Assembly (NCBI GenBank): GCA_000165345.1
Contig: CM000429.1
Coordinates: forward strand, 576,001-640,000
Direction of reading: 5' to 3'
DNA length: 64,000 bases
Under the pieces are notes generated by a model. The model was not told the origin of the DNA. It saw only the letters and a list, made by a program, of their open reading frames with translations, and ran no database searches. Positions 6,204-63,791 of this stretch are shown here, one piece after another. The translations under genes were made by a program, and so were the position numbers. Each line of letters starts with the position of its first letter. Position 1 is the first letter of the stretch.

Positions 6204-6311
6204 TGTAAAATTAACTAGAACATAACTAGGCGCCTTTTAAGGACTCTGACTCTTATTTAAGGTTTTTTTTCATTAAAACTATGGCGGTTCGCACTCGCGC
6301 CGGGATTAAAA

Positions 6312-6384
6312 TAGGAAGAACGGGAATCGAACCCGTGACCTCTTGCGTGTGAGGCAAGCGTCATAACCCCTAGACCATCCTCCT
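6312..6384 (-). tRNA. tRNA-Val (anticodon CAC)
   Basis: 73-nt cloverleaf on the minus strand: acceptor AGGAGGA/TCTTCCT (one G.U pair), D-loop AGGGGTTA, anticodon stem CTTGC/GCAAG with loop CTCACAC, T-arm ACGGG-TTCGATT-CCCGT, discriminator A, followed by a T-run (Pol III terminator). Confidence 0.85.
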
Positions 6385-6438
6385 GCACCAAGGGGTGCGC
6401 TTGCTAATAAAGCTATTTAAAGCAAAAGGCATAACATA

Positions 6439-6729
6439 TCATTTGTTGGTGCTTTGTAGAATGTTGGCATTAGATTGAAATTTAAATTCTCTTCTACACA
6501 TTGGGCACATTCCAGAATCATTTCTTGCACGTGAAAGCCACTCATGTATACAGTGAAGGTGGAAAGAGTGACCACATTCACCAAATGCTGGCGGACATGA
6601 ATCTCCAGGCTTAAAGCATTGAGGGCATGTTAATTCAAAAGATTCACTGCAAATACTGCAAAGGTCATCACCACACAGCCAATTCCAATACCCTATCATT
6701 CTTAGCTTATTGATTTTGATTCTGGCCAT
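6439..6729 (-). CDS. APC11: Anaphase-promoting complex subunit 11 (RING-H2 finger)
   Basis: 95 aa; CSIC...CPQC..PGDSCP..FGECGHSFHLHCIHEWL...CPMCRREFKF closely matches APC11 and is less like RBX1. Confidence 0.8.
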   Translation of the reverse strand: MARIKINKLRMIGYWNWLCGDDLCSICSESFELTCPQCFKPGDSCPPAFGECGHSFHLHCIHEWLSRARNDSGMCPMCRREFKFQSNANILQSTNK

Positions 6730-7077
6730 TTCAGTTTCAATTGAGGGAGTTAACTCGTAATATTTGCAAATATAAGATCGTGATATTGTAAACTATTGGT
6801 AGGTAATTCCATAAAAACACAAATATAAGTAAATTAATTTATTTTTGGCTTAAATCTCTTTGATGATTAAATTTTTAGGCAGTACATTATTCCCTAATTA
6901 GTTTCAAAGCGTTATTAGTACTTGCTTTTTTAGGTTACCGCTTCTGCAAAGATCCTAAAATTTTAAGCGGTAGTTGTAAAACTTGAAATAACATAAATTT
7001 TGACTTGTAGGAAGTAGCAGCTTTTAACTATTTGACAGTATGAATTCTATTTTCTTTAAAGTGCATTTAGTTTGAAA

Positions 7078-9675
7078 ATGAGAAATTTAGATCGAGAAAG
7101 AGAACTTAGACGACGCCAGTACCTGGCAGATCGAGAGAAACGTCAATTAGAGTTAGCTGAGAGAGTATTAAAGAGTAAAGAACTACTTTATGCTTCAATT
7201 GGAAAGGAAGTCAATGAAAAAAAAAAGAATGAATTGACTGCAGAGCAAAAAATATTAGCTGAGGCTGGTAAGATGGTTGAGGAGAGAGATACTGATGGCT
7301 CACTATTTGAAACATATATTATGCCGGAAAGTTATGATGAAGATTTACAAAAAAGACTTAGTACAGCAATAATTAAACCTCAAGATAGGTTAGATAAACG
7401 CAGAAAATTTAATAAGTCAGACCACGATATATGGGAGTCAAACCAAGCGAGATCTGGTGATATTTCTTTAGTTGAAAATAACAGACTGTCAACTAGGAAG
7501 GTAATTGACCAAGAGAAAAATTCCAAATCATTAATTCTTTCAGACGGATCTCTGATTGATTTTGAATTACTAGAAACAACAAGCACAGAAGTTAGCAGCG
7601 AATTTTCATCAAGAAACAAAATTATAGAAAGCCAGGACATTGAATTGATTAATGATGTTAGAAACTCTCTACCTGTTGTGAAATTTAAGGAGCAGATAAT
7701 AAAATCTCTGGAAGAACATCCAATATTGATAGTTGTCGGAGAAACTGGTTCCGGAAAAACAACTCAAATACCTCAATACTTATTTGAAGCTGGGTATTAC
7801 AAAAACGGAATAATTGCATGCACTCAACCAAGAAGAGTGGCGGCAATGAGCGTGGCTGCAAGGGTAGCTAAAGAGATGGGTTCTAGACTTGGAGGTTTGG
7901 TTGGATATTCAATAAGGTTTGAGGATTGTACAAGCGAAGAAACTGTTGTCAAATATATGACGGATGGCATTTTATTAAGGGAGTTTCTTTCAGAGCCTGA
8001 TTTAAAAAATTATTCGTGCATATTAATTGATGAAGCACATGAAAGAAGTCTCCACACGGATATTTTGTTTGGACTTGTAAAAGATGTTTCCAGATTCAGA
8101 AATTCAGATATTTATCTTGAAAACGATATTGGAAAGAATGGCAAGATAGAAGGCTGCGCCAATTATAATAAAAATCCCTTTAAATTGATTATATCATCTG
8201 CAACATTGGAAGCAAACAAGTTTAGTGAATACTTTGATAATGCACCAATAATATACATACCAGGTAGACGATTTCCAGTTAACATTTATTATACGAAGTC
8301 CCCTGAAGCAAACTTTATTGACGGGACGGTCGTAACTGTTTTGCAAATTCACTTTTCCCAAATAAAAAGGTCTAATGAAAATATGAGCTCTAAAAAGATC
8401 ATTCCAGTTGGAGGTGATATTCTTTGTTTCTTACCTGGACAACAAGAAATTGAAGAAGCGCAGGCATTATTAGAAAGTAGACTAGTAAATAAAGATCCAA
8501 ATTTACCAGAGCTTATTATACTTCCTATATACTCTTCACTTCCATCTGAACAACAAGCAAAGATTTTTCAAACAACTCCGTACGGGTTTAGAAAGGTTGT
8601 ACTTGCTACAAATATTGCAGAGACAGCATTAACCGTTGATAACATAGGGTTTGTAGTTGATTGTGGATTTTGTAAACAAAATTCATATAACCCAAAGACA
8701 GGTCTAGAAAGTTTAATTACCGTTCCTTGTAGTCAAGCTGCTGCAAACCAAAGATCAGGAAGAGCAGGTAGAGTTCGTCCGGGGAAATGCTTTAGACTTT
8801 ACACTAAGTTAAGTTTTACTACGGAAATGGAAGTATCAAATGTTCCCGAGATTCAGAGATGCAATTTGGGGAACGCTGTTTTAGTAATTAAATCTCTTGG
8901 GATTGATGATTTACTACATTTTGATTTCATGGATCCACCACCTCCAGAAACATTAATTCGCGCATTGGAACTCTTGTATTCATTAGGTGCGCTTGATGAT
9001 AAAGGGGAGCTAACGAAAGTTGGGAGAACAATGGCTGAATTACCTATCGATCCTATGCATGGCAAAATGGTCTTAGCATCTCAAAAGTACAGCGTTGTAA
9101 ATGAAGCAACTACAATAGTATCTATGCTTTCTGTTGGAAATTCGATTTTCATTAGACCAAAAGAAAAAGCTAAGCAGGCAGATAGTATTAGAAAAGCTTT
9201 CACTGTACATGGAGGAGATCTTTTGACACTATTAAATGTATATAACCAATGGCAGAGCAATGATTTTTCTGGATATTGGTGTTATGATAATTTTCTTCAA
9301 GTAAAAAGCCTTAAAAAAGCTCGCGACATTAAAACTCAGATAGATTCGCTTTTAAGTGAAAAATTAGATATTCAGATTTCAAGTAACCCCAATGAGTTAG
9401 AATATATTAGAAAGGCAATCACAGCTGGATTCTTTTTACAATCAGCACGCATTAATAAAGGTGGGAACTATACTACAATCAAGTGGCGCCATATAGTTGA
9501 CATCCATCCTTCTTCAACATTGTTCAATTTAAAGCCGTCAGCAATTACATACACGGAGCTTGTACTTACTACAAAGGAATATATGAGAAATCTTACTGAA
9601 ATAAAGACGGATTGGCTACTTGAGGTTGCTCCTCATTATTATCATACTGATGATTTTAATTCAAAAAGCAGCTAA
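7078..9675 (+). CDS. DEAH-box pre-mRNA splicing ATP-dependent RNA helicase, Prp2/DHX16-like
   Basis: GETGSGKTTQ, DEAHER, SAT, FLPGQQEIE, TNIAETALT, QRSGRAGR motifs; C-terminal WLLEVAPHYY matches Prp2/DHX16; first in-frame ATG at 7078 (the track start at 7072 is TTG). Confidence 0.85.
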   Translation: MRNLDRERELRRRQYLADREKRQLELAERVLKSKELLYASIGKEVNEKKKNELTAEQKILAEAGKMVEERDTDGSLFETYIMPESYDEDLQKRLSTAIIKPQDRLDKRRKFNKSDHDIWESNQARSGDISLVENNRLSTRKVIDQEKNSKSLILSDGSLIDFELLETTSTEVSSEFSSRNKIIESQDIELINDVRNSLPVVKFKEQIIKSLEEHPILIVVGETGSGKTTQIPQYLFEAGYYKNGIIACTQPRRVAAMSVAARVAKEMGSRLGGLVGYSIRFEDCTSEETVVKYMTDGILLREFLSEPDLKNYSCILIDEAHERSLHTDILFGLVKDVSRFRNSDIYLENDIGKNGKIEGCANYNKNPFKLIISSATLEANKFSEYFDNAPIIYIPGRRFPVNIYYTKSPEANFIDGTVVTVLQIHFSQIKRSNENMSSKKIIPVGGDILCFLPGQQEIEEAQALLESRLVNKDPNLPELIILPIYSSLPSEQQAKIFQTTPYGFRKVVLATNIAETALTVDNIGFVVDCGFCKQNSYNPKTGLESLITVPCSQAAANQRSGRAGRVRPGKCFRLYTKLSFTTEMEVSNVPEIQRCNLGNAVLVIKSLGIDDLLHFDFMDPPPPETLIRALELLYSLGALDDKGELTKVGRTMAELPIDPMHGKMVLASQKYSVVNEATTIVSMLSVGNSIFIRPKEKAKQADSIRKAFTVHGGDLLTLLNVYNQWQSNDFSGYWCYDNFLQVKSLKKARDIKTQIDSLLSEKLDIQISSNPNELEYIRKAITAGFFLQSARINKGGNYTTIKWRHIVDIHPSSTLFNLKPSAITYTELVLTTKEYMRNLTEIKTDWLLEVAPHYYHTDDFNSKSS

Positions 9676-9791
9676 GTATTTAGCGCTAAAGTATATTTTA
9701 GTTTAAATTTTCTCTAAAGTGAAGTTGAAAATTTAATATTTCATTATTTAGCTCAAGCTTGCACTGTGCATTTATCTTGTCCGAATTTAAT

Positions 9792-11099: not shown

Positions 11100-11154
11100 G
11101 GTATTTTAAAGCTATTAAGTAGTCTGTTAGTATTTGATCAATTTTATTAAACTA

Positions 11155-12666: not shown

Positions 12667-12937
12667 TTACATAAATTAATTGAATGCCAATATATCAAAA
12701 TAAATTATCTAGTTGCTTGGGTAAAGTTTGTCTTGTAATTTTCGATTTATAATTTTAATATAGTCAGAATTTACTTTTTTTTTCCATTTATGCGCCTTTT
12801 TTTTTCGTGTCAATTTATAAATTAATTTTAACATAAAAAGATATAATATACAAAAATTTGATAGGAAATTGCCATTATCTTAGAGATAAACTTAAGGAAA
12901 ATTATTTTTATTATAGGGTTATTTTAGTAATAAGATA

Positions 12938-14334: not shown

Positions 14335-14495
14335 CGGAAGCAGATTCAATGGTTGTGGGTTTGATGGTTATTTTTAACTTGAATGTGACTAATTTGTCAA
14401 GCCCAAATTGTAGCGCGCGTGTCGTGAGATCTTGTAGATTTAAATAAAAAATTTTATTATTGTAAACTTTATTGAATCATTAGTATCTGTTTAAG

Positions 14496-15719
14496 ATGAC
14501 GGATAATACTGATGAGTTGAATGATTCCAAGATTTTTTCATGTGAAGGCTGTGGTTCCAACACAAAATCAAAATTATCATGCCCTCAATGCAAGAAGTTG
14601 GGACTAAAGACATCTTTTTTTTGTTCCCAAGTCTGCTTTAAAGAAAACTGGGCCATTCATAAACTAAAACATCAATTAGGAGGAAGTAACAAAGAAGTTG
14701 CTAAAGTTTCTCTTGACTTGGTTAAAAAGAATGTAATCCTAGATGATCCTAGAACATGGGTTAATTGCTCACATATTTCAAAGTTTATAGGCTTTAATGG
14801 TTTCACAGGGCCTTTAAGACCCTATCCAATAAGTATTAAACGAAAGGTTCCAAGCCATATCTTGAGGCCAGACTACGCTGATGATAAGGAGGGAAGACCA
14901 TTTTCTGAATTAAAAAGAAAAAAAAGTTCTGCAATTGTTACAGCAACAGCTGAAGAAATTGAGCTCCTTAGAGAATGTTGTAAGATAGGAAGAGAAGCTC
15001 TTGATATTGCTGCTTCTATGATAAAACCTGGAGTAACAACTGATGCTATTGACGAAGCTGTTCATAATTTCATTATTTCTAAAAACTCTTATCCTTCTCC
15101 ATTGAATTATTGGGAGTTTCCAAAGTCGTGTTGCACCTCTGTTAATGAGATAATATGCCATGGGATCCCTGATTTCAGGCCATTGGAAGAAGGGGATATT
15201 GTAAATGTTGACATTTCTGTATATTATAAAGGAGTACACTCGGATTTAAATGAAACGTTTCCGGTTGGAAAAGTTGACGAGAAATCAATGAAATTAATGA
15301 AAGTGGCTTATCAATGCTTAGAGGAAAGTATCAAGATTTGCAAGCCTGGTACAATGTACAGAGAAATAGGCAATCTGATTCAGTCAATTTGTGATAAACA
15401 AGGCTTTTCTGTTGTAAAAACTTACTGTGGGCATGGAGTTGGAGCTTTATTTCATTGTGCTCCTAATGTGCCTCACTATAAGAATAACAAGGCCGTCGGA
15501 ACTATGAAACCAGGCCATGTATTTACAATTGAGCCAATGATTAATGCAGGTAGATTTGAAGATATAACTTGGCCAGATGATTGGACATCGGCAACATTAG
15601 ATGGAAGTAGATCCGCTCAATTTGAACATACTTTGTTGATTACCGAGACTGGAGTAGAAGTTTTGACTAAAAGATTGGAAAGCTCACCTAAACTTGAAAT
15701 TCTTTCTGAAATAGAGTAG
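14496..15719 (+). CDS. MAP1: Methionine aminopeptidase type 1 with N-terminal zinc finger
   Basis: N-terminal C6H2 zinc finger (CEGCG...CPQCKK...CSQVCFKENWAIHKLKH) and the pita-bread catalytic domain, both characteristic of eukaryotic MetAP1. Confidence 0.85.
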   Translation: MTDNTDELNDSKIFSCEGCGSNTKSKLSCPQCKKLGLKTSFFCSQVCFKENWAIHKLKHQLGGSNKEVAKVSLDLVKKNVILDDPRTWVNCSHISKFIGFNGFTGPLRPYPISIKRKVPSHILRPDYADDKEGRPFSELKRKKSSAIVTATAEEIELLRECCKIGREALDIAASMIKPGVTTDAIDEAVHNFIISKNSYPSPLNYWEFPKSCCTSVNEIICHGIPDFRPLEEGDIVNVDISVYYKGVHSDLNETFPVGKVDEKSMKLMKVAYQCLEESIKICKPGTMYREIGNLIQSICDKQGFSVVKTYCGHGVGALFHCAPNVPHYKNNKAVGTMKPGHVFTIEPMINAGRFEDITWPDDWTSATLDGSRSAQFEHTLLITETGVEVLTKRLESSPKLEILSEIE

Positions 15720-16003
15720 ATAATTTGTTCCTAATCTCTAATTATTTTTTTATTAATATTAATCTTTATAACTTATTATTTTATTAGAAAATTGCTACAA
15801 TCTATTAATTCGTGTGTAATTAAAAAGTTTTGCCGGTAAAAAAGGTACCGGGAAAAAATTTATTCTAAATTCTTGTCATAAATTTTCGCAAGAACAAAAA
15901 AAAAATAAGATTATTGAACAGATTCAACTGAGACTTAAATTAAGCTGGAATTAAGGGATTCAATATCTTATTATTTAAATTGGTTTTAATTACTACCTTT
16001 GGG

Positions 16004-17285: not shown

Positions 17286-19568
17286 CTAGTCTTTTAACTC
17301 AAGAACTTGGGATTTCGGGATGCGACGAATCCAATCAAACAGTAGCGCACCGATAGAATCGAGCTTGTTGTTGTTCATAAAATGAATAAATTGCTGCCTA
17401 ATATTCGACAAAGATTCTGCATCAACCCAAGACTCACAAGTCTGTATTAATGTTAGCACATCTGTAAAGTGCCTAGTAATTAAATCATCAGAGAGTATTT
17501 CTGAAAGTATATTATGAATACACCAACTGTCGCTTGGCTTCCCGACTCCTTTGAACCAAGCAGTGATCAGAGGAAATGGAGAAATACCTGGAGATATTGG
17601 GTCAATATAGCAATTGTTAACTCCAATCTTAGAACATGTATTGGATAGCGTATCAGAAAAACATGAAGAAAATGGGTTGTCCTTTAATTCAGAATCTTGG
17701 CTAAGTTCGCCTATGAAGTCTGAAGTTTGAGCGCTTGAAGTCCTAGATCCTGTTCTTAGCAGGTTGTCATGAGGGCTTTCGCCATATAAATGCCTCTCAT
17801 TCTCAATTAATGAAAGGAAATCAAGTGAGTCAGATGATGATGATGATGAAGATGATGAGTATCTTGTTGAAGGGTTTGGAGTATTGTTCTCAGAGTGCTT
17901 TACACTTAAGTCAGCGTTTGTGCCTTTCTGGCCTCGTAATGATTTGGATGAGAGAGAGAGAATTGATTTATATCTATTTGTAAAAAGAGAGTCTCTCTGC
18001 TTTGAAATTTGTATCCAAACGCATGTAAAATAAGTTCCAAGCCATTCGGCTACATCTTGTTGGAGAGAAAAGGAAAATTTAGTTACAAACTTTGTATCTA
18101 CCTCAAGGCTCTTTTTGTACAGTAAATAGAGAGTTAGCGTCCTCAACGGAAAGAACCGGATCTTAATGTCTACATTCAAATGACTGATAGTAATCTGGTC
18201 AAGAGAAATGTTATTATTAAGTGAAGGCTGTAAAATTCTTAAGGTTTCTGAGTTTCTAAATATTGCTTGATTTTCCATTAGGAGCTTTAGTAGTTCATCT
18301 TTATTTTTTTTTACAAACTCATCTATTCTGCATGTCACGAGCAGCCCAGTCTTATTGGGACCACCTGATATTATCGGACAAAACGCTTTGATACCATCGG
18401 AAGATAAATCAAATGTAGCTTCTCCAAGAAAAGTGTTTTCGAAGTAAAACTTAGCTCTAGCTGCAAAACAATTAAAAAAACCGGTACAACGAGTTTTTGG
18501 ATATGCAAAAATTCCAAGTGATGTTACACTAGTAATTGAAGCATCAGGACTTGGTGGAAGTGTTTCCATTGCAAAATTTACTGTTGTTGCAGACCCTTCG
18601 TTATCTTGGTCTGCGTAAAGTTCAAGTTCAATTGGAAACCCACTCATCTCGCCCGTAATTACATGTGGAGAGCTCTGGGCGAATTTATTAATTGTTTTTC
18701 GTTCGCTAATATACCAAAGAGTAGGTTGCCAAACATGTGAAATTGCATCAAAGATATCGTTTTCTTCTGTGACTCCTTTAAGGAAATCCTCAACTTTGGA
18801 AATTTCAGGTGACCATTGAGCTCCAAGAGACTCACAAATTGTATTGATAATCCTTATGCCATAAATTTCACTCTTATTCTTGAAAATTTCTCTAATTATT
18901 CTCCCTCCTTCAAGTGAAATCACTACATCCCTCATCTGGTGATATTGCACCAATTCAAGAAGGAGTTTAAACCCATTCTGAAGTTTTAAAGATAGGTTTA
19001 ATATCTTCTGTCTTATTTTCATGCTAACTATTGAGGATTCACATTCAAACCAGTCAAAACAACTCAACTTCCTGGCTAGCATCGACCAGAATACGTCAAC
19101 ATCAAACTCCTCACCTTCTTGACATTTGGTATTTGAACCAACCATAGGGAGAAACCCCATGTAGTCTAGGGTAATTAATATAATTTCCAAGTTGTCTGGT
19201 GTGAGTTTCCTAAATATACCATTGTTATTATGGCCGTAATCCTGAAAGATAATCTTTGCAATTTCAAAAGTCGTTTGGACTTCTGAGTTACCTTCCAAAG
19301 TAGAGCTTCTTTCACCCAATAATCTGAAATAGTTAAATCTTTTCCCCACTTCCTCAGAAACATGAAAGGTTTGATTTTTCCCCATATCTTCATTATATAC
19401 ACAAATTTCCCATCCAAAACCTTTTTTTGGCTCATCATCTATGCAAGCTTTTTTCGCCTCATTTTCTTCCTTTGAATGGTTTTCTGAGCCCATTTCCATA
19501 CTTGATCTCTTGAGATTTAATTCAAGGTCAAATGGGTCATCTAAAGAGAAAGCCTCATTTTTTTCCAT
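17286..19568 (-). CDS. Hypothetical 760-aa protein with a poly-Ser tract
   Basis: Long ORF with ATG at 19568; no confident domain; internal SSSSSSSSS run. Confidence 0.5.
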   Translation of the reverse strand: MEKNEAFSLDDPFDLELNLKRSSMEMGSENHSKEENEAKKACIDDEPKKGFGWEICVYNEDMGKNQTFHVSEEVGKRFNYFRLLGERSSTLEGNSEVQTTFEIAKIIFQDYGHNNNGIFRKLTPDNLEIILITLDYMGFLPMVGSNTKCQEGEEFDVDVFWSMLARKLSCFDWFECESSIVSMKIRQKILNLSLKLQNGFKLLLELVQYHQMRDVVISLEGGRIIREIFKNKSEIYGIRIINTICESLGAQWSPEISKVEDFLKGVTEENDIFDAISHVWQPTLWYISERKTINKFAQSSPHVITGEMSGFPIELELYADQDNEGSATTVNFAMETLPPSPDASITSVTSLGIFAYPKTRCTGFFNCFAARAKFYFENTFLGEATFDLSSDGIKAFCPIISGGPNKTGLLVTCRIDEFVKKNKDELLKLLMENQAIFRNSETLRILQPSLNNNISLDQITISHLNVDIKIRFFPLRTLTLYLLYKKSLEVDTKFVTKFSFSLQQDVAEWLGTYFTCVWIQISKQRDSLFTNRYKSILSLSSKSLRGQKGTNADLSVKHSENNTPNPSTRYSSSSSSSSSDSLDFLSLIENERHLYGESPHDNLLRTGSRTSSAQTSDFIGELSQDSELKDNPFSSCFSDTLSNTCSKIGVNNCYIDPISPGISPFPLITAWFKGVGKPSDSWCIHNILSEILSDDLITRHFTDVLTLIQTCESWVDAESLSNIRQQFIHFMNNNKLDSIGALLFDWIRRIPKSQVLELKD
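17834..17859. repeat. (GAT)n trinucleotide repeat inside the CDS, encoding poly-Ser on the minus strand
   Basis: gatgatgatgatgatgaagatgatgag seen directly in the sequence. Confidence 0.7.
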
Positions 19569-22644: not shown

Positions 22645-22652
22645 TTTGGCGC
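22645..22652. promoter_or_regulatory. E2F-like site TTTGGCGC in the divergent PUF60 / 23021 promoter
   Basis: Matches the E2F/DP consensus TTTSGCGC; one of about 12 intergenic GGCGCC/GCGCGC occurrences in the window. Confidence 0.4.
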
Positions 22653-25606: not shown

Positions 25607-25722
25607 ATCACTATATTATACATTTTTAAGTAGGTTTACTTCATTTTTATATAAATTTTTGTTCTCGCTGTCGTTTTTTGCTAGTTACATTTCGATATAA
25701 GTCTTTAGAATTAAACATGTAC

Positions 25723-25730
25723 TTGGCGCC
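25723..25730. promoter_or_regulatory. E2F-like site TTGGCGCC, 62 bp upstream of the AAA-ATPase ATG
   Basis: As above. Confidence 0.4.
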
Positions 25731-33121: not shown

Positions 33122-33576
33122 ATCGTCTATCAAAAACTGAGCTTATAAGCATATATACCTGAATTAAAGCTTTAGAACCAAACTACTGCCCAGATAAGAC
33201 AAACCAATTTTTTTTTCGTTTATGGATTTTTATGCGTTTTTGCCTCTTGTAAATTTGACCTTTAGCACTTTTACCATTTACCGGTTAAAAAGTACTGCGC
33301 GCGCATTTTCGATTTGCAGTCAATTAAAGAATTGGAAAAAAATTATTACTGGAAGAAAAATTTTAAATTTAGGAAGAACTACGTACTCAGTCAACACGCC
33401 TATTCGATTACTATTCTGATTTATTCCATGAAAACTGTATATCAAGCTTAGGCTCACTGAATATTAATTTTTTTTTTCAAGGCTGCCCTCCTAATCTAAG
33501 GCCTATTTTTTCGTCCAAATGGATCATGAAACCTTGATGAACCTGGATTAATTCAGTTTTTGAACATCCTGCTAAA

Positions 33577-36571: not shown

Positions 36572-36626
36572 AGATAAGAATTTTTCGCGAATAATTGCAA
36601 TTGGTCAAATATAATTAATTTTCGAA

Positions 36627-36636
36627 TTTTGGCGCC
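36627..36636. promoter_or_regulatory. E2F-like site TTTTGGCGCC, 56 bp upstream of MED7
   Basis: As above. Confidence 0.4.
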
Positions 36637-36799
36637 TAGTCTTTATAATAAACACCAGTTATGAGAATATTTTCTGGAGAAACAGACTTGCTGATAAATG
36701 TAGAGTAGACCAAACTAGTAAACCCTTTGTTTTTAAGCCAAAATAGCCTATTAGTATAAATTAGTCAGTATAGAAACCTAGGTAATCACTATTTAAAAC

Positions 36800-38486: not shown

Positions 38487-38494
38487 TTGGCGCC
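38487..38494. promoter_or_regulatory. E2F-like site TTGGCGCC in the divergent TRM13 / syntaxin-5 promoter
   Basis: As above. Confidence 0.4.
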
Positions 38495-44197: not shown

Positions 44198-44684
44198 CTT
44201 GATTCAGCCATTTCAGCACAGACTAAAAATGTGGCAGCTATATAATTTTTTATTCTTCTATTAACTCTTCACACGCCCAGATTTTTGTTGCTTTAATTCT
44301 GCAACTACAATTAAACTTTAATATTAAGAAAATAATTTACCGCCAAGTATTTGATGCACTACTATGCCGGCATACAATTATCTTTCAAAGACCACACAAA
44401 TTGGAATTCACTAACAAAAAAAAAAAAGATATAATTGCTCGAAATTTTAAAAGCCTCATTTTTTGTAATCAATTAAAAGCAATTATTATATGATCGTTTA
44501 CCTACATGCAAACTATTTGAAAAGTTAATTCTATCTCTTATGTATAATATAATTTCTATGAATATTCTGTATAAATATGAAAAGGATATTTTCTTGCTGG
44601 GGGAGACTTATTTATGACTCCCTTTTTTCATTACCCTTATCTTCAAATAAAACACTTTTTTTTCTTACTATATAACAATTTTTG

Positions 44685-48550: not shown

Positions 48551-48560
48551 ATTGGCGCCA
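48551..48560. promoter_or_regulatory. Palindromic E2F-like site TTGGCGCCAA upstream of the 44685 kinase gene
   Basis: As above. Confidence 0.4.
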
Positions 48561-49110
48561 AACTTCTTAAATTAAATGATTAAAAAAAAGATTAAGAAAT
48601 AATGAAATATACTCGTTTCAAGTAACTTTTGGTTAATTATAGGAGTAAAAAGTTTAGTATTTTTTTTTTAGTGAGAACATTATATATCTTTGAGCTCCTA
48701 GCTGCACCTTTTGTTCAATTAGTTTTTTAGGCAAACCGTTTCAGGAGCTATTTCTATAGGGAAAAAAAAGGATTAATATTGATGTGTGTACATGTTCAAA
48801 AGCGTTCTTCTTGTTTAACATCTTAACAGATTATTGTATTTTTGCCTCATCAATGATAGTAATAGCGGGATATGAAGGCAGGTTATGAGGTAACAGTAAA
48901 GGCCAAGGATATAATGGCAGGGAATTGGGTAAAATAAAAATCTTGCAAAGAAAATCATGAAACACGTTTTTTAGTTTACATTTTTTTTCTTCAAGTTATT
49001 GTCTTACTTATATATTTGTAAAACTAAACCAATTATTGAAATAAATGCAACTTTTAATACAAATTTTACTTTTTAAAGAATAAACATTAAAGGTTTAAAT
49101 CGAAATATTA

Positions 49111-50148: not shown

Positions 50149-50466
50149 AGTTAGCTATAGAACTATTTAGAGTTACTAGCTAAATACTAACTCATTTTTA
50201 TTTTTAATTGCAAAAAATGCATCAAAAATTTTATTACATAGATATTGTATTTGCATGCAATATTTAGTGATTTGTTTTATTTTATTTTTCCAGCTTAAGC
50301 CAACAAAATTTGAATTAATTTTTTTGGCGGTTTATTTATTTAATAATCCCTCGTAACTTTGTTGTGTTAAACTATAAACAGGTGCAAAAGAATGTAAGCA
50401 TCCGGAACTTATCATCATTTTAGAATCACAGACTAACTGAGTAGCCTTTCATAGATATAGGTATAG

Positions 50467-52545: not shown

Positions 52546-54572
52546 ATACATTTATCGATATCTCACATTTAAAAATTAGAAATTTGTTAGTTATAGCTAC
52601 TTATAGTTTACATAATTACTTAGTAAAACACAATTAATTTTAGATTTAATCTTGTTTTCCTCATCATTTAAAATTAAAAAAATTATACGTAAGACTCTCC
52701 CCCGCCACACATGGCGCCATAACGTCACGTCGAGCCACGCAATTTTTTTGCAAATTGAGATTGAATCTAATCAGTATTAATCTGTCTTTCATTACTTGAA
52801 ATTCAGAATTCAGTAAGCATATTGCTCATTTTCAGTGGACCTTTAGGATTAAAGCTTTTCGTTTTCTGATGTGAATGGCACTATCATGGTAATTATAACG
52901 CTTCGATTGGCTCTATCATGGTAATATTTCTTTGATGGCTGTACAATGATTTGATTTGTATCATGGAAGATATTTGCATTTGATTTTTGTCACTAATGAA
53001 CGATGATAGTATTGAATTATGTGTTTTATGAGTGGAAAAACCACTCCAACTCTTTCGGAATTTCCTTATGAGTTTCTTTTATTATCTGGTTGTTAAAAGG
53101 GTGAACTATTTTTTTTCAGGTAATATCGATGACTTGCATAGTTTGATTATCTTCATGGTTTTTCATATCTTTATCAACTGGACCTGTTTTTGCCTAACTC
53201 TAGAACATATTTTTCTACTATTATCATCAGTATTCAGCAGTGACAAACCTGATTAACAAGCTATTGGTAAACTAAGGTAAATCATTGGTTGAGAATGAAA
53301 ATATCCTTTCTTGACTTAGTGGATCAATCTTCCTTGTGACTTGCCAGAGTTCCCCTAATATTTATTGTCAGATGAACGTGTATCAAATGACCTCTTATAT
53401 GTGAATTTATCCCTGAATTCCTAATCTTAGTGAGTATTATTCTAATTGGCCTTTGAACAGTATTTATATTACTGGTAGACCTTTTAAGGTTGCTTCTGTC
53501 TCAAATTCCATGACATCTCTTACCTGAGCTTATATATATCTTTTCCAAAGCCTTTTAAAAAAAAAATTGTTTGAAGTTTCAGATATCTTGAAAATATTAC
53601 GATCAATTTATCCATGTTTATTGTTAAAGAGCATTAGTTCCTTGGGATAGAATTTTGGTGTATTATGATTGAGTGTATATAGAGTTGCTTTATCCATACT
53701 TGGTTCCGGTAATACTTAACTAGATAATATTATTTGAACTATTTTATCTGGCAGTCACATGGAAGGGGTACTTGTACATTGTTGTGATCATTCCATTTTC
53801 TTGGCTTGTTATTTCAAAAGTATCGTCACTGCTGGATATATGATATACAATATTGAAAACAATTCGTCCATTTATGTATTTTTAATCACCAAACATTCAT
53901 TTGGTTTATACATTGTGCTACGCCATCATCCGTTATTCCAATCTCTATCTTATTTGAAATACAACAATTCAACGTTTTCCAACAAGCTTGTCTTATTTTT
54001 CTTTTTAAACTTTTAATTATTGCCATTAGATGAAGATATGTTGTATCATTGGATTTTGTGTATTCAAAGCAATATACATAATATTTGTAAAATAGTAATT
54101 TTATACAGGCTGAATTGTTTTTCTTTTAGGGATAAAGAAGATAACTTATTTCGAGAAAAGAAGATTTCTTTATATTGAAGATTTCAAGGATGCCAATTGA
54201 TAACGAACTCAAGCGGTTCCGAGCTATGAATAACTAAGATTTATAAGGATGTCTGTAATGCATCTCTTAGCATACTAATTCAGGTTATGTTTCAAGTTTA
54301 ACGCTTTTCCTAATGTTTTGGTTAGGTTATAAAGTCAATTTTTGAAGAAAAAGAGGAAAGAGGCTTTAATCTATTGTGGCGCAAATTTGCTCGAGATTAT
54401 GGGAGATGATAATTGATGTTCTAATGGCAGTGTTTTCAACATAATTAGAGGGATGTGTAGATAACTGGCGGTGCTTGATGATGAGAAATTTAGATTGTGT
54501 TCGGATGTCGAATCCGCTTCGAATTTGTTTCATTAGGTGAGGTTTAGTTGCAAGGTCATGTTTATGCATGTT

Positions 54573-54586
54573 GTGCGCGCCAAAAG
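54573..54586. promoter_or_regulatory. E2F-like site (TTTTGGCGCGCAC on the minus strand), about 290 bp upstream of UTP21
   Basis: As above; located in the ORF-free GC-richer island. Confidence 0.35.
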
Positions 54587-54869
54587 TTGCTGCCATCCTC
54601 TAAGGTTGTATGAATGCCTTTCATCGTATTAGTCGCTTATTCTGAATGAGGTTTAGTGACTTTTTGCGAAAAAAGTCTTAATTTCGGAGTTAGGGTCATT
54701 AGTTCTTTTTAATTTTCTGTTTTTTTCCGATTATGTCTGAGCGGTGCCTCTGCTGTTCTGGTTAAGGATATACGCGGGAGACGGCCTTGTATTAGGCGGC
54801 AAGTGTGGTCTATAGTAATTTTTGACAATTGGTTGTAATGAGACTGATAATTGAATTAAATGAAATAAC

Positions 54870-57987: not shown

Positions 57988-58009
57988 TTAATGGTACCGG
58001 TACCATTAA
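57988..58009. repeat. Perfect 22-bp palindrome TTAATGGTACCGGTACCATTAA, with a second partial copy (CGGTACCGGCATTAATGG, 58019..58036) 9 bp downstream
   Basis: The sequence is its own reverse complement; GGTACCGG core plus ATTAATGG arms repeated; lies about 140 bp upstream of the 58151 ATG. Confidence 0.8.
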
Positions 58010-58150
58010 AAATTATAACGGTACCGGCATTAATGGAAAAAATGTCAATAAGATCAAAATTGAAAATTTAATAAATAATTAATAAATAATTACAATGATT
58101 AATTTTTAAAGTTATTTTATTTTGATAATTTCAGTTATAACAATATTAAA

Positions 58151-59923
58151 ATGAGTGATAGAAACATTGAACAATTATTAGAAGTAATTAATGGTAATAG
58201 TACTCACCAAAGTAATTTGGAGAAACTAATAACTAATTCTATACCAGAATTAGAGTCAAATTTTGAGATTCTTGAATTAGAAAAAAAGCTAATTATCACT
58301 AAGTTTTCATTGGGCCTAATGGAATTTAAGTCAGATTCAAAAACTTTTCATCAAGCAAGAATGTCTTTATTGGCCTTAATTTTGGAAAAGCAAGAAATTA
58401 AGGAAATACTTGAATTTAACTTTAATGGCTTTAATCCTTCAGTCCATATTTTGCACTCTGTGGAAATAGCTTCTTTGGAAATTAGATTATTTTTGGAATC
58501 TAAGCTTGTAGAGTTGGAAGACTTTAAATTTAGCCTTGATGAATCAAAGGATAAAAAACAAGTACAAGACGATGAGGAAATTGATCTTTTAACAAGTAGC
58601 TTTCGAATATTAGATTCTCTTCTTACTCAGCTAAACAAAGATGAAAATTTGGATTTTTTGGAATTTTCTGAGAAGATTACAGGAGTTCAGGTAGTTGAGT
58701 TATTAGATTCATTAAAGGGCACTGCAAAACATTGTATTGAATTTATATTGGATATTGAAGGAATCATTCGAGATGAATATGAAATGGATCTTAATAAGGG
58801 AGTATTAGAACTTAAAGGTAATACTAACTCTAAAACATCAAGTTTGTATTGGATTATTTATTATTCTTGCTCAATATCATCTAAATGGCAAATTAACGAG
58901 CCTGATCAAGACCTTGATAAGTATATTAAATTGCTAGAAATTGCATCCAGGTATTTGAATCCTCTCCATTTTGCATCTGTATTCCCCACACTCATCCATA
59001 TTTCTGTAATAGACTGGGCAAATATTCCTGGTATATTAGAAACTGTATTAACATCAATGCTTTCATTCTCTACTTTAATTAAACAAGAAAATAAGAAAGA
59101 AGGGATTTATAGTGGATTATATTATGCAGCACTCCTAATCACATCTGCCTGGTGGTCTCCAGGAATAGATACATATAGAATAGCAGCTTCAAAAATGAAA
59201 GATGGTTCAAGATCTCTTGAATATATTTCAAGAAATTATTTAAATCTGGATCACTTAGATAAGATACAGGATAGTAAAGTCTCTTTATCAAAACTTAGAG
59301 TAGAAGAAGAGAAGAAATCTGGGACAAAAATGCCAGAATTCGTACCTTTAGATACAAATGCAATTCCCGAATACTCATTTGAGGATAATCCTGGAGTGGA
59401 TAGAGTTAGAAGGATCTCGCTCATTATTTTTGGACTAATTAAAGAGATTTATCAAGAAGATATTAATCAATTTCAAGGAGACCAGATTAATAAAGTCTTG
59501 TTTATTAGACATTTAGATGACCCAAATTCACAAAATTTCGAGAAATTCTCAGCTTTTATTCAGACCCTTATTTGCATTTTAACATTATTAACTTGTAGAA
59601 TCCAAAACTCTTATGTACCATCAGAACTTTGGAATATTATATTTAAACTAATAATTGTATTGACTCCAAAATCTAGTAAAGGGTATTATTACGATTCCCC
59701 TAGAAAAATCACATTTTTTATTTCATTACTTAGAACTACAGCTATAGCATTTTCGAGTGGATATTCTGATCAAGCCAAGCAATTTGATAAATTACTCGAG
59801 GATCTAAAAATTGAAACAACATATAATATTCCAAAGCTAATAATAAGAGACGATTGTGAGGAATTCTCTGAGCAAGATGAAGAATCAATCAAATTCTTCC
59901 GTAATTTATTAGATATTAGTTAG
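58151..59923 (+). CDS. Hypothetical 590-aa helical protein
   Basis: Clean ATG ORF with no domain I can identify. Confidence 0.45.
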   Translation: MSDRNIEQLLEVINGNSTHQSNLEKLITNSIPELESNFEILELEKKLIITKFSLGLMEFKSDSKTFHQARMSLLALILEKQEIKEILEFNFNGFNPSVHILHSVEIASLEIRLFLESKLVELEDFKFSLDESKDKKQVQDDEEIDLLTSSFRILDSLLTQLNKDENLDFLEFSEKITGVQVVELLDSLKGTAKHCIEFILDIEGIIRDEYEMDLNKGVLELKGNTNSKTSSLYWIIYYSCSISSKWQINEPDQDLDKYIKLLEIASRYLNPLHFASVFPTLIHISVIDWANIPGILETVLTSMLSFSTLIKQENKKEGIYSGLYYAALLITSAWWSPGIDTYRIAASKMKDGSRSLEYISRNYLNLDHLDKIQDSKVSLSKLRVEEEKKSGTKMPEFVPLDTNAIPEYSFEDNPGVDRVRRISLIIFGLIKEIYQEDINQFQGDQINKVLFIRHLDDPNSQNFEKFSAFIQTLICILTLLTCRIQNSYVPSELWNIIFKLIIVLTPKSSKGYYYDSPRKITFFISLLRTTAIAFSSGYSDQAKQFDKLLEDLKIETTYNIPKLIIRDDCEEFSEQDEESIKFFRNLLDIS

Positions 59924-60009
59924 AAAAGTTCTATAGTAGGCAATATTTGTTATAAACAAAATGATATAATTAATTATAATCTGTCACAACTGCTTTATTG
60001 AATATAAAT

Positions 60010-60429: not shown

Positions 60430-60772
60430 ATTTTCACCTTTTCTTTACAAGTTAGAAATTTTATTATTTTATTTGATCATAAGCCGTTTCCCGCCAAAAG
60501 TACCGAATTATTTAAGCTTTAAATATTGGAAAACTATTATTCAAATAAGGACGAGCTTTTACTGAGATCAAATGATATTTAAAAAAAAGTTTGATTTCCT
60601 AATTAGATTTCCTAAGTAGTTTTGCTGAAGTAATTGGTAGATTGTTCCTTATTTTATTCTTTTGTTTTTTTTTCTTATTAGTTAAAGATTAAAGATAATA
60701 ATATTTTGATGAGATAAATGTTATATATAATTAAAATATTCCTGAAAAATAAGGTAAAAGGCTATAAACTGT

Positions 60773-61435: not shown

Positions 61436-61498
61436 TTAATTTTAAACTCTCTGATTTGTTTCTTATTCTTCGGATATATTTACTTTATTTTATAAAAA

Positions 61499-61506
61499 CT
61501 TGGCGC
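61499..61506. promoter_or_regulatory. E2F-like site TTGGCGCC, 64 bp upstream of the membrin gene
   Basis: As above. Confidence 0.4.
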
Positions 61507-61618
61507 CACTCTGTCATATTTTATTTAGTCTTTAATTATTACATGGATAATAATATTTTCACTTGGAAAATACAAGCAGAAAAAAAAATGTAATAAAGAA
61601 ATGCTTGATTTTATTAGT

Positions 61619-63679
61619 TTAAAAAGCTTCTTCCTTTTCAAATACATACTCATCAGAGTCTATTTCATCTTTTTCTGCTTGAACCTTTATATTTGACCCT
61701 TGTTCCATTCTATTTATAAACCACTTACAAAAAATGGAATTTAGTCGTTCTCTGAGTTTTTCTTCATCATTTCCCTCTAAAAAAGGATTAGAAAGATATA
61801 TTTTTAATTGTGTGATTTACCACACAAAACCTACCTAGTAAATCTGACAAATTTGTTGAATTCTCAGGATCGCATCTAGAAAGTATTTCAAATAGGCCAT
61901 TTTTAAATACTATGGAATCCGATCTCATCACCATAGATGCTAAGTTCTTGGAAATGATTGGGGAATATTTTTCTACCGAGCTTTTATAGTTAAATTCTTT
62001 GATATTAACAAGTTCCATTGGAAACTTAACTTGACAACCTTTCATTAAACTTTTTAACGATTGTTGAATAATTGTAGAAAGCCCAACATTGCTTTTCAGA
62101 CTACTCTTTCCCAAAGTACCATACTGAATTCCATGGCCTTTAACATTAATAAATAGAACTCTAATACTAAATTCAACCGTTGGAATTACCATTATTGGAA
62201 GTAAGAATTCACTCTAAAATTATTATAATTTAGATATTGTATTTTAATATATCGCTATTAAAATAGCTAACTTACCCCAGAAAATACTGAAAGTTTCTCA
62301 TGATTATTTTCTAATATTTCATCTTTTTTTGCCAATTTCATTCCAAAGATATTTCCTTTCTTTCTGATGAAGCTTTTAACTGATGTTACAATATCACAAT
62401 ATTCTGTATCTTTACAAATAATTGGCATTCCATTCGAAAAACGGTAAACGTAAAGATAGCCTGTCTTTAGAGAAGTTGTTTGAGATGTATTGGATATATT
62501 TAAGTTTGATTGGTTTTCTTTATCAACATTTTGATATTCAATATCATCTACTTGGTTTTCTTTTTTCACATGAAATTCTCTTAAAAAACCGAAAACTGAA
62601 TCAATCTTATATTTAGATCCTTTATTACTTGAATACCGAATAAAATTATCTTCAAAAATATCGAAAAATGATAAATTGATATTTCCTTTTATCAAATCAG
62701 AAGCATCCATTTTCATATTTGTTTCAAAGTTTAAGAAAATATGGCTATTCCAAAATTTAGAAAGTACCAAATAACTTTGAATCTTCTTAAGGCATGATTT
62801 TGCATAAAGTTCCATAGAAAAGTACTTCTCTTGTAAGTATTCTAGTCCTAAGCTCATTTTCATAGACACTGAGAATTCAGTTATCCAATCCCAATTGGTA
62901 TAATCAAAACTCTCACTATTCCCTACATAAAAAGATCCATCATTCAGGTTACAAAGCAGAGTAAACTCCCAAATCTTGTTTCCCATTCTCATCTTAACTT
63001 TAACGTTTCCTTCTCCATGTTGTGTAGCATAAAGTAATATCATTTTAAGGCCTACCCCAAATTGTCCTGTATAATAAGAATCTCTTTTATTTATTTTCTT
63101 ACTAAAAGATGAATCAGAATTAAAAATTTAATCAATCACTTTAAATACAATTAATATTTAAACTCACTTTGTTCCAAAAAGAGTTCCCAATAGGTCAATG
63201 GATTCTAAAGGTATTCCGCATCCTGTATCTCTTACAATGATGTTTATTCTTGCCTTAAAGTTCAAACCAATTTTAATAAAAAATCAAATTTATTAATACT
63301 AGTCCTGTATTTTACTTACCTGATCATCCAATTCTAAATTCTCAAAATTCACAGAGATTTCTATTTTTTTTGGAAAATCATGCCACTCTGCTTTTGCCTT
63401 ATTATTACATGCATCTATAGAGTTATCAAAAAGTTCCTAAATAAAAAAAATCAATCCAAATTAAACTAAAAGCTACATTGCAAATTAAATCTTATTTAAC
63501 TTACCTTGAAAGCCATAAAAGGAGCATTTTCTGAGTCAAATCCAGTAATCCCAATGTCTATAGAATCATAGAAAAGTTAGTTATTACTTGTAAATCCACT
63601 CAAAGAAATATATATTTCACAAAAGAATCACAAAAAACTTACTTTCTGAAAAGAAATTAATTGCTGAAATATTGGACAT
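61619..63679 (-). CDS. DNA topoisomerase VI subunit B-like GHKL ATPase, 7 exons: complement(join(61619..61776,61835..62213,62276..63101,63168..63253,63320..63436,63505..63557,63643..63679))
   Basis: Bergerat-fold motifs are spread over exons 3-5: ELFDNSIDAC (N-box), IIVRDTGCGIP (G1), LLGTLFGT.K, GQFGVGLKMILLYATQH (close to Topo VI-B GLGVKAAVLYSQMH). All six introns are 56-85 nt with GT(A/G)AGT donors and AG acceptors in phase; the exon 6/7 join (GTAGGT donor) is less certain. Confidence 0.6.
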
Positions 63680-63783
63680 TTTAGAAAAATATCTTTTTAG
63701 ATTGATGCAAATTATTTCTCTGATTCCACTTTTAATTAATATTTTTTCACACATTGGCTGTCAATTATGACTGTGGGGGCCCG

Positions 63784-63791
63784 TTGGCGCC
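63784..63791. promoter_or_regulatory. E2F-like site TTGGCGCC, about 105 bp upstream of the Topo VI-B-like gene
   Basis: As above. Confidence 0.4.

What the first reader, a model, noticed from the sequence alone, without database searches (positions are those of the whole stretch)
6227..63791. Recurrent promoter-proximal E2F-like GGCGCC/GCGCGC motif
TTGGCGCC-type elements occur in at least 12 intergenic positions: 22645, 25723, 36627, 38487, 48551, 52711, 54575, 61499, 63784, GCGCGCG at 14413 and 33297, and TGCGCC at 12791. They are usually 50-130 bp upstream of an ATG and often sit in bidirectional promoters (SmF/MetAP1, TRM13/Stx5, PUF60/23021, RPA2/33577). In a sequence of about 30% GC, an 8-bp all-G/C-core motif at this frequency is strongly non-random. 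It matches the E2F/DP consensus TTTSGCGC.
Basis: partly seen in the sequence, partly recalled or inferred. Interest (0 to 1): 0.55.

Follow-up and report, generated by a model that had tools for sequence, protein, structure and literature searches.

The report
Known Cryptosporidium E2F-like promoter motif
The recurring TTGGCGCC element is real, sits almost only in gene-upstream spacers and is conserved between Cryptosporidium species.

Summary
The window is Cryptosporidium parvum chromosome 1; two of its proteins match C. parvum Iowa II entries exactly. TTGGCGCC occurs 7 times against 0.37 expected, and GGCGCC 9 times against 0.92. Thirteen of 16 strict sites lie in the 19% of the DNA that is intergenic (p=1.7e-7). 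After composition correction, TGGCGC and GGCGCC are the top hexamers of intergenic DNA. Adding the variant TTGGCGG gives sites in 14 of 23 promoter-containing spacers and in 1 of 10 convergent (3'-3') spacers. The median distance to the nearest ATG is 140 bp. Eleven of 12 cores are fully conserved in C. ubiquitum, against 21-28% of background 6-mers. More distant species (C. xiaoi, C. bovis, C. felis, C. muris) often keep a site at the same promoter, sometimes swapping GGCGCC for GGCGG. The E2F reading matches the literature: Oberstaller 2013 motif 3 (DTTGSCGCCH) and motif 4 (TTTGGCGGGAAV) are the most over-represented upstream motifs in C. parvum. These motifs are also enriched in sporozoite ATAC-seq peaks, and the genome encodes two E2F and two DP proteins. 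Direct binding by E2F/DP has not been shown. Verdict: confirmed, interpretation supported, already known. One side lead is a conserved TACCGG(TA) element upstream of RNA polymerase I/III subunit genes, which is not among the 25 published motifs.

The parts
4594..4600 (-). TTGGCGG variant site in the divergent Na/Ca-exchanger / kinase spacer, about 330 bp from either ATG
   Evidence: No orthologous sequence was available to test conservation.
14413..14419 (.). GCGCGCG site in the SmF / MetAP1 bidirectional promoter, 80 bp from each ATG
   Evidence: Conserved in C. ubiquitum (GGCGCGCG) and C. felis (GGCGCG).
22645..22652 (+). TTTGGCGC site in the RRM(PUF60-like) / ZW10 bidirectional promoter, 115 bp from the RRM ATG
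   Evidence: Kept in C. ubiquitum, C. xiaoi and C. muris (GGCGCCAA).
25723..25730 (+). TTGGCGCC site 66-69 bp upstream of the AAA-ATPase ATG, in a tandem spacer after ZW10
   Evidence: C. xiaoi has GGCGCC 51 bp upstream of the orthologous ATG.
33297..33304 (.). GCGCGCGC site in the RPA2 / unknown-288 bidirectional promoter, 177 bp from the RPA2 ATG
   Evidence: Core fully conserved in C. ubiquitum at 169 bp.
36629..36636 (+). TTGGCGCC site 58 bp upstream of the Med7 ATG. Its last base overlaps the TRM13 stop codon, in a 64-bp tandem spacer.
   Evidence: Kept in C. ubiquitum and C. xiaoi; replaced by CCGCCAA in C. muris at 74 bp.
38487..38494 (+). TTGGCGCC site in the TRM13 / syntaxin-5 bidirectional promoter, 177 and 156 bp from the two ATGs
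   Evidence: Kept in C. ubiquitum (183/158 bp); C. xiaoi has the CCGCCAA variant.
44340..44346 (-). TTGGCGG variant site 143 bp upstream of the SF3b3/CPSF_A-type gene ATG
   Evidence: Conserved in C. ubiquitum (147 bp) and present in C. muris (267 bp).
48552..48561 (.). Perfect palindrome TTGGCGCCAA in the kinase / COQ5 divergent spacer, 400 bp from the kinase ATG
   Evidence: Present at 406, 397 and 397 bp in C. ubiquitum, C. xiaoi and C. bovis.
50324..50330 (+). TTGGCGG variant site 143 bp upstream of the YccV-like gene ATG
   Evidence: Conserved in C. ubiquitum (148 bp); C. muris has TTGGCGCC 67 bp upstream of the ortholog.
52712..52719 (.). TGGCGCCA site 168 bp after the YccV-like stop, at the left edge of a 2.3-kb gene-free gap. 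No protein ATG is nearby, so it may be a non-coding RNA promoter.
   Evidence: Conserved in C. ubiquitum at 169 bp. E2F motifs upstream of lncRNAs are published (PMC7840661).
54575..54584 (-). TTTGGCGCGC site 291-294 bp upstream of the Utp21 ATG
   Evidence: 5 of 6 core bases conserved in C. ubiquitum.
60487..60498 (-). Perfect canonical E2F site TTTGGCGGGAAA, 62 bp upstream of the LSM-domain gene ATG
   Evidence: It matches published motif 4, TTTGGCGGGAAV.
61500..61507 (+). TTGGCGCC site 65 bp upstream of the V-SNARE gene ATG
   Evidence: Conserved in C. ubiquitum at 64 bp.
63784..63791 (+). TTGGCGCC site 105 bp upstream of the HATPase_c gene ATG, in a divergent spacer
   Evidence: Kept in C. 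ubiquitum (102 bp) and C. bovis (144 bp).
6229..6301 (.). Doubtful members: GGCGCC at 6229 and CGCGCC at 6296, in the convergent spacer between the kinase 3' end and the tRNA-Val 3' end. Neither is upstream of any ATG.
   Evidence: 6229 is GGCACT in C. ubiquitum.
9484..9491 (.). Doubtful member: TGGCGCCA inside the DEAH helicase ORF (codons W-R-H), 307 bp upstream of the GNAT ATG. The rare CGC Arg codon is kept in four species.
12791..12796 (+). Doubtful member: TGCGCC partial match in the Ank / WBS-methyltransferase divergent spacer
   Evidence: Core not conserved in C. ubiquitum, and no family site in this spacer in any species.

Best explanation
These are instances of the published 'E2F-like' cis-element family of Cryptosporidium parvum: a palindromic T-GGCGCC-A / SGCGCS core plus the TTTGGCGG(GAAA) variant.

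The most likely mechanism is as follows. An E2F/DP winged-helix heterodimer, made from the parasite's two E2F and two DP proteins, binds the site inside the short nucleosome-free spacer upstream of a gene. From there it helps set up transcription, often in both directions, because the core is symmetric and many spacers are divergent.

Shown here: non-random excess, confinement to promoter-containing spacers, position about 60-400 bp from the ATG, purifying selection on the core across species, and functional equivalence of the GGCGCC and GGCGG forms (they replace each other at one promoter between species).

Taken from the literature: genome-wide over-representation, enrichment in open chromatin, and the presence of E2F/DP genes.

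Inferred, not shown anywhere: that E2F/DP is the protein that binds, and whether it activates or represses.
For: - Organism: C. parvum.
- Excess over shuffles.
- Intergenic location: 13 of 16 strict sites, p=1.7e-7. For the wider family the intergenic/genic density ratio is 14x in the window and 13-19x in C. ubiquitum, C. xiaoi and C. muris.
- De novo ranking: with an order-2 Markov correction, TGGCGC (13 observed, 1.8 expected) and GGCGCC (7 observed, 0.5 expected) are the top intergenic hexamers.
- Spacer type: sites occur in 14 of 23 promoter-containing spacers against 1 of 10 convergent ones in the window, and in 28 of 71 against 1 of 28 in the other species (p=2e-4).
- Conservation: 11 of 12 cores are fully conserved against C. 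ubiquitum, where only 21-28% of background 6-mers are (p about 3e-7 to 7e-6).
- Distances to the ATG are conserved, for example 400/406/397/397 bp upstream of the kinase gene.
- Variant swaps occur at the Med7, Stx5 and YccV promoters.
- Flanks: T is enriched at position -1.
- A perfect TTTGGCGGGAAA sits at 60487.
- Literature: PMC3734150, PMC4117751, bioRxiv 10.1101/2025.01.17.633476, PMC12246861, PMC7840661.
Against: - No direct E2F/DP binding data exist. The 2025 review states that most regulatory components lack functional validation.
- In the window, the motif-bearing promoters serve housekeeping genes of every kind (snRNP, tRNA methylase, SNAREs, kinase, Pol I subunit). They are not a cell-cycle set, which is atypical for classical E2F regulons.
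- Nine of 23 promoter-containing spacers have no clear site.
- Conservation falls off in C. muris, where 5 sites lie in about 15 kb of spacer.
- Three sites (6229, 6296, 52713) are not near any protein-coding start.
- By density alone, the window does not separate promoter from convergent spacers (1.46 against 1.02 per kb). The separation comes from the other species.
Confidence: 0.8

Rival explanations
1. The element is a genuine promoter motif, but it is bound by a factor other than E2F/DP, for example an ApiAP2, Myb or zinc-finger protein with a GC-palindrome preference. On this reading the resemblance to E2F sites is coincidental.
For: No binding experiment links E2F/DP to the motif. The target genes are not a cell-cycle set. 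The motif occurs upstream of 161 of 200 expression clusters, whatever their timing.
Against: The match extends beyond the core to the full canonical TTTGGCGGGAAA and to T/A flanks. According to the literature, Cryptosporidium is the only apicomplexan genus that keeps E2F/DP, and E2F-like motifs top its upstream over-representation lists. Protein-binding microarrays of C. parvum AP2 domains yielded TGCAT, CACACA and G-box motifs, not this one.
Confidence: 0.12
2. The GC palindrome acts mainly as a structural or boundary signal in a very compact genome. It could position nucleosomes, or mark the end of one transcription unit and the start of the next, including internal promoters of dicistrons. 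It would not be a classical regulated transcription-factor site.
For: The site at 36629 abuts the TRM13 stop codon in a 64-bp spacer. Sites occur at 3'-3' positions beside a tRNA. The literature reports the motif in 160 of 201 inter-ORF regions of polycistronic transcripts, and one open-chromatin peak per unit.
Against: Convergent spacers, which also need boundaries, almost never carry it: 1 of 28 in the other species. The exact sequence, not just GC content, is conserved. This reading is compatible with E2F/DP binding rather than an alternative to it.
Confidence: 0.06
3. The pattern is a chance or compositional artefact of a small sample of AT-rich spacers.
For: Raw intergenic-versus-genic k-mer rankings are dominated by composition (AT-rich words).
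Against: No shuffle reaches the observed counts. The motif tops the Markov-corrected ranking. Other G/C words are not enriched in spacers. The core is conserved across species well above background.
Confidence: 0.01

Closest known systems
C. parvum 'E2F-like' upstream motif family: Oberstaller et al. 2013 motif 3 (DTTGSCGCCH) and motif 4 (TTTGGCGGGAAV). According to that paper it was first noted on chromosome 6 by Bankier 2003. The GGCG-core motif of Mullapudi 2007 belongs to the same family.
   Same: Same organism, same sequences, same upstream location, and same association with bidirectional promoters and open chromatin. The window's sites are simply local instances.
   Different: Nothing essential. 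I did not find these described in the papers I read.
Metazoan and plant E2F/DP binding sites (TTTSSCGC; palindromic TTTGGCGCCAAA and TTTGGCGGGAAA)
   Same: The core SGCGCS with T-rich and A-rich flanks, a symmetric site for a heterodimer of two winged-helix domains, and a promoter-proximal position. That these are the canonical consensus forms is my own knowledge.
   Different: Classical E2F sites mark cell-cycle and DNA-replication genes and are controlled by pocket proteins (Rb). C. parvum lacks Rb orthologues. The motif sits upstream of most gene classes, and in this window upstream of housekeeping genes of all kinds.
ApiAP2 palindromic promoter motifs of Apicomplexa (for example TGCATGCA and the G-box)
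   Same: Short, often palindromic elements enriched in the compact spacers of apicomplexan genomes.
   Different: The sequence is different, and the published AP2-domain binding arrays do not recover GGCGCC.

Membership tests
Published C. parvum E2F-like upstream motif family (motifs 3 and 4 of PMC3734150) | The sequence comes from Cryptosporidium parvum | tested here: met
   The MetAP1 and Utp21 ORFs are identical to C. parvum Iowa II EAK88357.1 and EAK88349.1. An exact gene match lies on an 881-kb chromosome record.
Published C. parvum E2F-like upstream motif family (motifs 3 and 4 of PMC3734150) | Match to consensus DTTGSCGCCH or TTTGGCGGGAAV | tested here: met
   Exact DTTGSCGCCH with a GGCGCC core at 36628, 38486 and 48551/48553; the other exact matches (4805, 7838, 20510) have the GCCGCC core and two of them lie inside ORFs. 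One-mismatch matches at 25722, 52712, 54575, 61499 and 63783. Exact TTTGGCGGGAAA at 60487.
Published C. parvum E2F-like upstream motif family (motifs 3 and 4 of PMC3734150) | Over-represented in upstream/non-coding DNA relative to coding DNA | tested here: met
   13 of 16 strict sites lie in 19% of the DNA. The density ratio is 14x. The motif tops the Markov-corrected hexamer ranking.
E2F/DP transcription-factor binding site (functional sense) | Core SGCGCS with a T-rich 5' flank and an A-rich 3' flank (TTTSSCGC) | tested here: met
   T at position -1 in 12 of 24 half-sites in the window and 24 of 38 in other species, against a 36% background. TT flank in 17 of 62, against 15%.
E2F/DP transcription-factor binding site (functional sense) | The organism encodes E2F and DP proteins with the conserved DNA-contact residues | not testable with these tools
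   No E2F_TDP domain was found among the ORFs of at least 120 aa scanned. The literature reports two E2F genes (cgd1_1560/70, cgd6_1430) and two DP genes (cgd7_3650, cgd8_1850).
E2F/DP transcription-factor binding site (functional sense) | Physical occupancy or specific binding by E2F/DP (ChIP, EMSA, protein-binding microarray) | not testable with these tools
   No such experiment was found in the held literature, and the 2025 review says validation is lacking.
E2F/DP transcription-factor binding site (functional sense) | Target genes enriched for cell-cycle or DNA-replication functions | tested here: inconclusive
   Motif-bearing promoters in the window serve SmF, MetAP1, Med7, TRM13, syntaxin-5, SNAREs, kinases, RPA2, ZW10 and others. 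There is no obvious cell-cycle bias, but 23 promoters are too few to test.
E2F/DP transcription-factor binding site (functional sense) | Purifying selection on the site (evidence of function) | tested here: met
   11 of 12 cores are fully conserved in C. ubiquitum against a 21-28% background. Sites are retained or replaced by a variant at the same promoter in C. xiaoi, C. bovis, C. felis and C. muris.

The most novel reading that the evidence does not exclude
E2F/DP in Cryptosporidium may not be a cell-cycle regulator. It may instead be the default promoter-defining factor of a compacted genome. On this reading, one position-locked palindrome per spacer fixes the nucleosome-free region and the start sites for both flanking genes, and also marks the internal promoters of dicistrons and lncRNA promoters. 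Two observations fit this: the distance to the ATG is held within about 10 bp between species whose spacers are 30% diverged, and the GGCGCC and GGCGG forms replace each other at the same promoter. The published authors have raised the general idea of unusual reliance on E2F. The position-locking and the variant swapping seen here would be new supporting details.
Probability: 0.3. Interest if true: 0.45.

Novelty: already known. Interest (0 to 1): 0.15.

Why it matters
Cryptosporidium is a major cause of childhood diarrhoea, and its gene regulation is poorly understood. According to the literature, it is the only apicomplexan genus that keeps E2F/DP. The E2F-like motif is the commonest candidate regulatory site in its genome, so it is central to any regulatory map of the parasite. 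That significance belongs to the published work.

What this window adds is modest: a clean, locus-by-locus demonstration that the sites are under selection across the genus, and a short list of well-behaved bidirectional promoters (SmF/MetAP1, TRM13/Stx5, RRM/ZW10) suitable for the missing binding and mutagenesis experiments.

Tried and rejected
1. Raw intergenic-versus-genic k-mer ranking was dominated by AT-rich words. I replaced it with an order-2 Markov expectation within intergenic DNA.

2. I first thought the 2.3-kb gene-free gap (52546-54869), flanked by two sites, was an unusually conserved lncRNA, because 1.6 kb is 75% identical to C. ubiquitum with no frame preference. The average spacer identity is 69.5% and the gap as a whole is 70%, so conservation does not single it out. 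Rfam finds nothing there.

3. I checked whether the GC-rich sites at 6229 and 6296 belong to a second RNA gene beside tRNA-Val. Rfam at a permissive threshold finds only the tRNA.

4. I tried to name the unannotated ORFs next to motif-bearing or TACCGG-bearing promoters (58151-59923, 33577-34443, 131-2779, 17286-19568). None has a Pfam hit even at E<=1. The two ORFs also searched against solved structures (58151-59923 and 33577-34443) have no relative there.

5. A literature search for the TACCGG element returned only PCR primers.

6. Bankier 2003 (PMC403770) is not in the held library. Its priority is cited second-hand.

7. An orientation bias of the asymmetric TTGGCGCC form was considered. 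All six non-palindromic copies are on the + strand, but they serve genes on both strands, so no gene-relative orientation rule emerges.

8. The E2F/DP proteins themselves could not be fetched.
Full report
**Origin of the sequence**

The window is 32.9% G+C and tightly packed with mostly intron-less eukaryotic ORFs. The MetAP1 ORF (14496-15719) is found exactly on an 881-kb chromosome record. The MetAP1 and Utp21 proteins are identical to Cryptosporidium parvum Iowa II entries EAK88357.1 and EAK88349.1. Orthologues in C. ubiquitum, C. felis, C. xiaoi, C. bovis and C. muris are 51-92% identical. So the window is C. parvum chromosome 1.

Yes.
- TTGGCGCC occurs 7 times against 0.37 expected, and GGCGCC 9 times against 0.92. 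No shuffle reaches either count.
- I refined the gene models by synteny with annotated C. ubiquitum loci and added a tRNA-Val at 6312-6384. With these models, 19.4% of the window is intergenic, yet 13 of 16 strict site clusters lie there (p=1.7e-7).
- Other G/C-only words (GGCC, GGGCCC) show no such bias.
- A raw k-mer comparison is swamped by AT-rich words. Against an order-2 Markov expectation within intergenic DNA, TGGCGC (13 observed, 1.8 expected) and GGCGCC (7 observed, 0.5 expected) are the two most over-represented hexamers. They are followed by TGGCGG and GGCGGT.

**Extent of the family**

TTGGCGG occurs six times, four of them in spacers that lacked a strict site: 4594, 44340, 50324 and 60491. 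The last of these is a perfect TTTGGCGGGAAA.

With both forms counted, the window has 22 site clusters, 17 of them intergenic. That is a 14-fold density excess over genic DNA, and the ratio is 13-19-fold in C. ubiquitum, C. xiaoi and C. muris.

Sites by spacer type in the window:

| Spacer type | Spacers with a site |
|---|---|
| Divergent | 7 of 10 |
| Tandem | 7 of 13 |
| Convergent | 1 of 10 |

In the other species the figures are 28 of 71 promoter-containing spacers against 1 of 28 convergent ones (p=2e-4). The median distance to the nearest ATG is 140 bp, and 14 of the 15 sites lie 61-403 bp from it; the fifteenth (52713) is 2154 bp away. In six of the seven tandem spacers the site is nearer the downstream ATG than the upstream stop.

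**Evidence of function from related genomes**

Three anchors (MetAP1, syntaxin-5, Utp21) gave fully syntenic loci from five other species. I aligned 24 spacers to C. ubiquitum.
- Overall spacer identity is 69.5%.
- Eleven of 12 motif cores are conserved at all six positions, and the twelfth at five.
- Only 21% of all 6-mers in spacers, and 25-28% of GC-rich ones, are fully conserved. This gives p of about 3e-7 to 7e-6.

In species whose spacers no longer align, a site is still present at the same promoter in many cases:

| Promoter | Species that keep a site |
|---|---|
| RRM/ZW10 | C. ubiquitum, C. xiaoi, C. muris |
| Med7 | C. ubiquitum, C. xiaoi, C. muris |
| Kinase at 48152 | C. ubiquitum, C. 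xiaoi, C. bovis, at 406, 397 and 397 bp (400 bp in the window) |
| HATPase gene | C. ubiquitum, C. bovis |

At the Med7, Stx5 and YccV promoters, GGCGCC in one species is replaced by GGCGG in another. That argues the two forms are read by the same factor. Other sites are lost (SmF/MetAP1 in C. xiaoi and C. muris, RPA2 in C. xiaoi), which is ordinary binding-site turnover.

**Weak or atypical members**

- 12791 (TGCGCC) is a partial match and is not conserved.
- 6229 and 6296 lie between the 3' end of a kinase gene and the 3' end of tRNA-Val. They serve no ATG, and 6229 is not conserved.
- 52713 sits 168 bp after a stop codon at the edge of a 2.3-kb gene-free gap. It is conserved in C. ubiquitum and may drive a non-coding transcript. 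E2F motifs upstream of C. parvum lncRNAs are published.
- 9485 lies inside the DEAH helicase ORF (codons Trp-Arg-His). The rare CGC arginine codon is retained in four species while neighbouring synonymous sites vary. This hints at dual use as a promoter element for the downstream GNAT gene, but it is a single codon and no more than a hint.

**What it is**

The sequence, its flanks and its location fit an E2F/DP site. T sits at position -1 in 36 of 62 half-sites against a 36% background.

This is already published for this genome.
- Oberstaller et al. 2013 list motif 3 (DTTGSCGCCH), over-represented in 114 expression clusters, and motif 4 (TTTGGCGGGAAV), in 47. They call these E2F-like and describe them as the most over-represented upstream motifs. 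They credit Bankier 2003 and Mullapudi 2007 with earlier sightings.
- The 2014 paper reports the motif upstream of 161 of 200 clusters, and its AP2-domain arrays did not recover it.
- A 2025 preprint finds the E2F motif to be the dominant motif in sporozoite ATAC-seq peaks, more than half of which are bidirectional promoters. It also finds the motif in 160 of 201 inter-ORF regions of polycistronic transcripts.
- C. parvum encodes two E2F and two DP proteins but no Rb.
- A 2025 review states that experimental validation is still lacking. A search for newer binding data found none.

**Mechanism and confidence**

I am nearly certain that these are instances of the known motif family and that they are functional promoter elements under selection. 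That E2F/DP is the binding protein is a strong inference from sequence identity and from the co-retention of factor and motif in this genus, but nobody has shown it. Overall confidence in the stated mechanism is 0.8.

The main rival is a different binding protein (0.12). A mainly structural or boundary role (0.06) is not exclusive of E2F binding. Chance is excluded.

**Seen in passing**

A second, unrelated element appeared in the de novo ranking. GGTACCGG occurs 4 times in intergenic DNA against 0.02 expected, and TACCGG 12 times against 4.3.
- An inverted pair, CCGGTA-N7-TACCGG, lies 158-171 bp upstream of the AC40 gene (RNA polymerase I/III subunit). It is an island of identity in C. parvum, C. 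ubiquitum, C. felis and C. xiaoi, within a spacer that is otherwise unalignable.
- TACCGGTT lies about 160 bp upstream of RPA2 in three species.
- TACCGGTA-type copies lie upstream of the unannotated gene after Utp21 in three species.
- The AC40 and unknown-590 promoters have no E2F-like site.
- The element is not among the 25 published motifs, and its strings are absent from the two key papers.

It is a candidate element for an RNA polymerase I / ribosome-biogenesis regulon. It is more likely to be new than the finding under review, but it rests on three promoters.

**Verdict**

The finding is already known, so interest is low.

Noticed in passing
window 15833-15851; 33279-33284; 57993-58027 (orthologous: L004:11339-11358, L005:11306-11324, L006:11332-11352, L008:4613, L009:4787, L011:13104-13131, L012:13124-13131): A second conserved cis-element, TACCGG(TA), lies upstream of three genes. 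Upstream of AC40 (RNA polymerase I/III subunit) it forms an inverted pair, CCGGTA-N7-TACCGG. It also occurs upstream of RPA2 (Pol I subunit) and of the unannotated gene downstream of Utp21. GGTACCGG occurs 4 times in intergenic DNA against 0.02 expected. The AC40 copy is an island of identity across four species in an otherwise unalignable spacer. The element is not among the 25 published C. parvum motifs. It may belong to a Pol I / ribosome-biogenesis regulon.
   Followed up: partly
window 6312-6384 (- strand): A tRNA-Val(CAC) gene lies between the kinase and RING/APC11 genes and is conserved in C. ubiquitum, C. xiaoi and C. felis. The C. ubiquitum annotation appears to run its RING gene call (L004:1739-2169) across the tRNA.
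   Followed up: partly
window 52546-54869: A 2.3-kb stretch between the YccV-like and Utp21 genes has no ORF and no Rfam family. It is also gene-free in C. ubiquitum, C. bovis and C. muris, which is unusual for this compact genome. E2F-like sites sit at both edges. It is 70% identical to C. ubiquitum with no frame preference, the same as the average spacer, so conservation does not single it out. It may be an lncRNA locus.
   Followed up: partly
window 49111-49968: A COQ5/UbiE-type methyltransferase ORF is intact here (Pfam E=2.5e-57) and in C. muris (332 aa). It is split into 64- and 79-aa gene calls in C. ubiquitum and is absent from the syntenic position in C. xiaoi and C. bovis. This pattern suggests lineage-specific decay of a ubiquinone-pathway gene.
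   Followed up: no
window 36572-36638: The TRM13 stop codon (36636-36638, - strand) overlaps the last base of the Med7-promoter GGCGCC, and the whole spacer is 64 bp. The TRM13 3' UTR must therefore overlap the Med7 promoter or gene. This arrangement resembles the published dicistronic units that carry an E2F motif in the inter-ORF region.
   Followed up: no
window 9484-9491: TGGCGCCA lies inside the DEAH helicase ORF (Trp-Arg-His), 307 bp upstream of the GNAT ATG. The rare CGC Arg codon is kept in C. parvum, C. ubiquitum, C. xiaoi and C. felis while nearby synonymous positions vary. C. xiaoi has an extra GGCGCC 50 bp upstream of GNAT. This may be a promoter element embedded in coding DNA.
   Followed up: partly
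window 25723, 36629, 38487, 61500, 63784 (and 22645): All non-palindromic TTGGCGC(C) copies are on the + strand of the window, although they serve genes on both strands. This is probably coincidence (about p=0.03) and no gene-relative orientation rule emerges.
   Followed up: no
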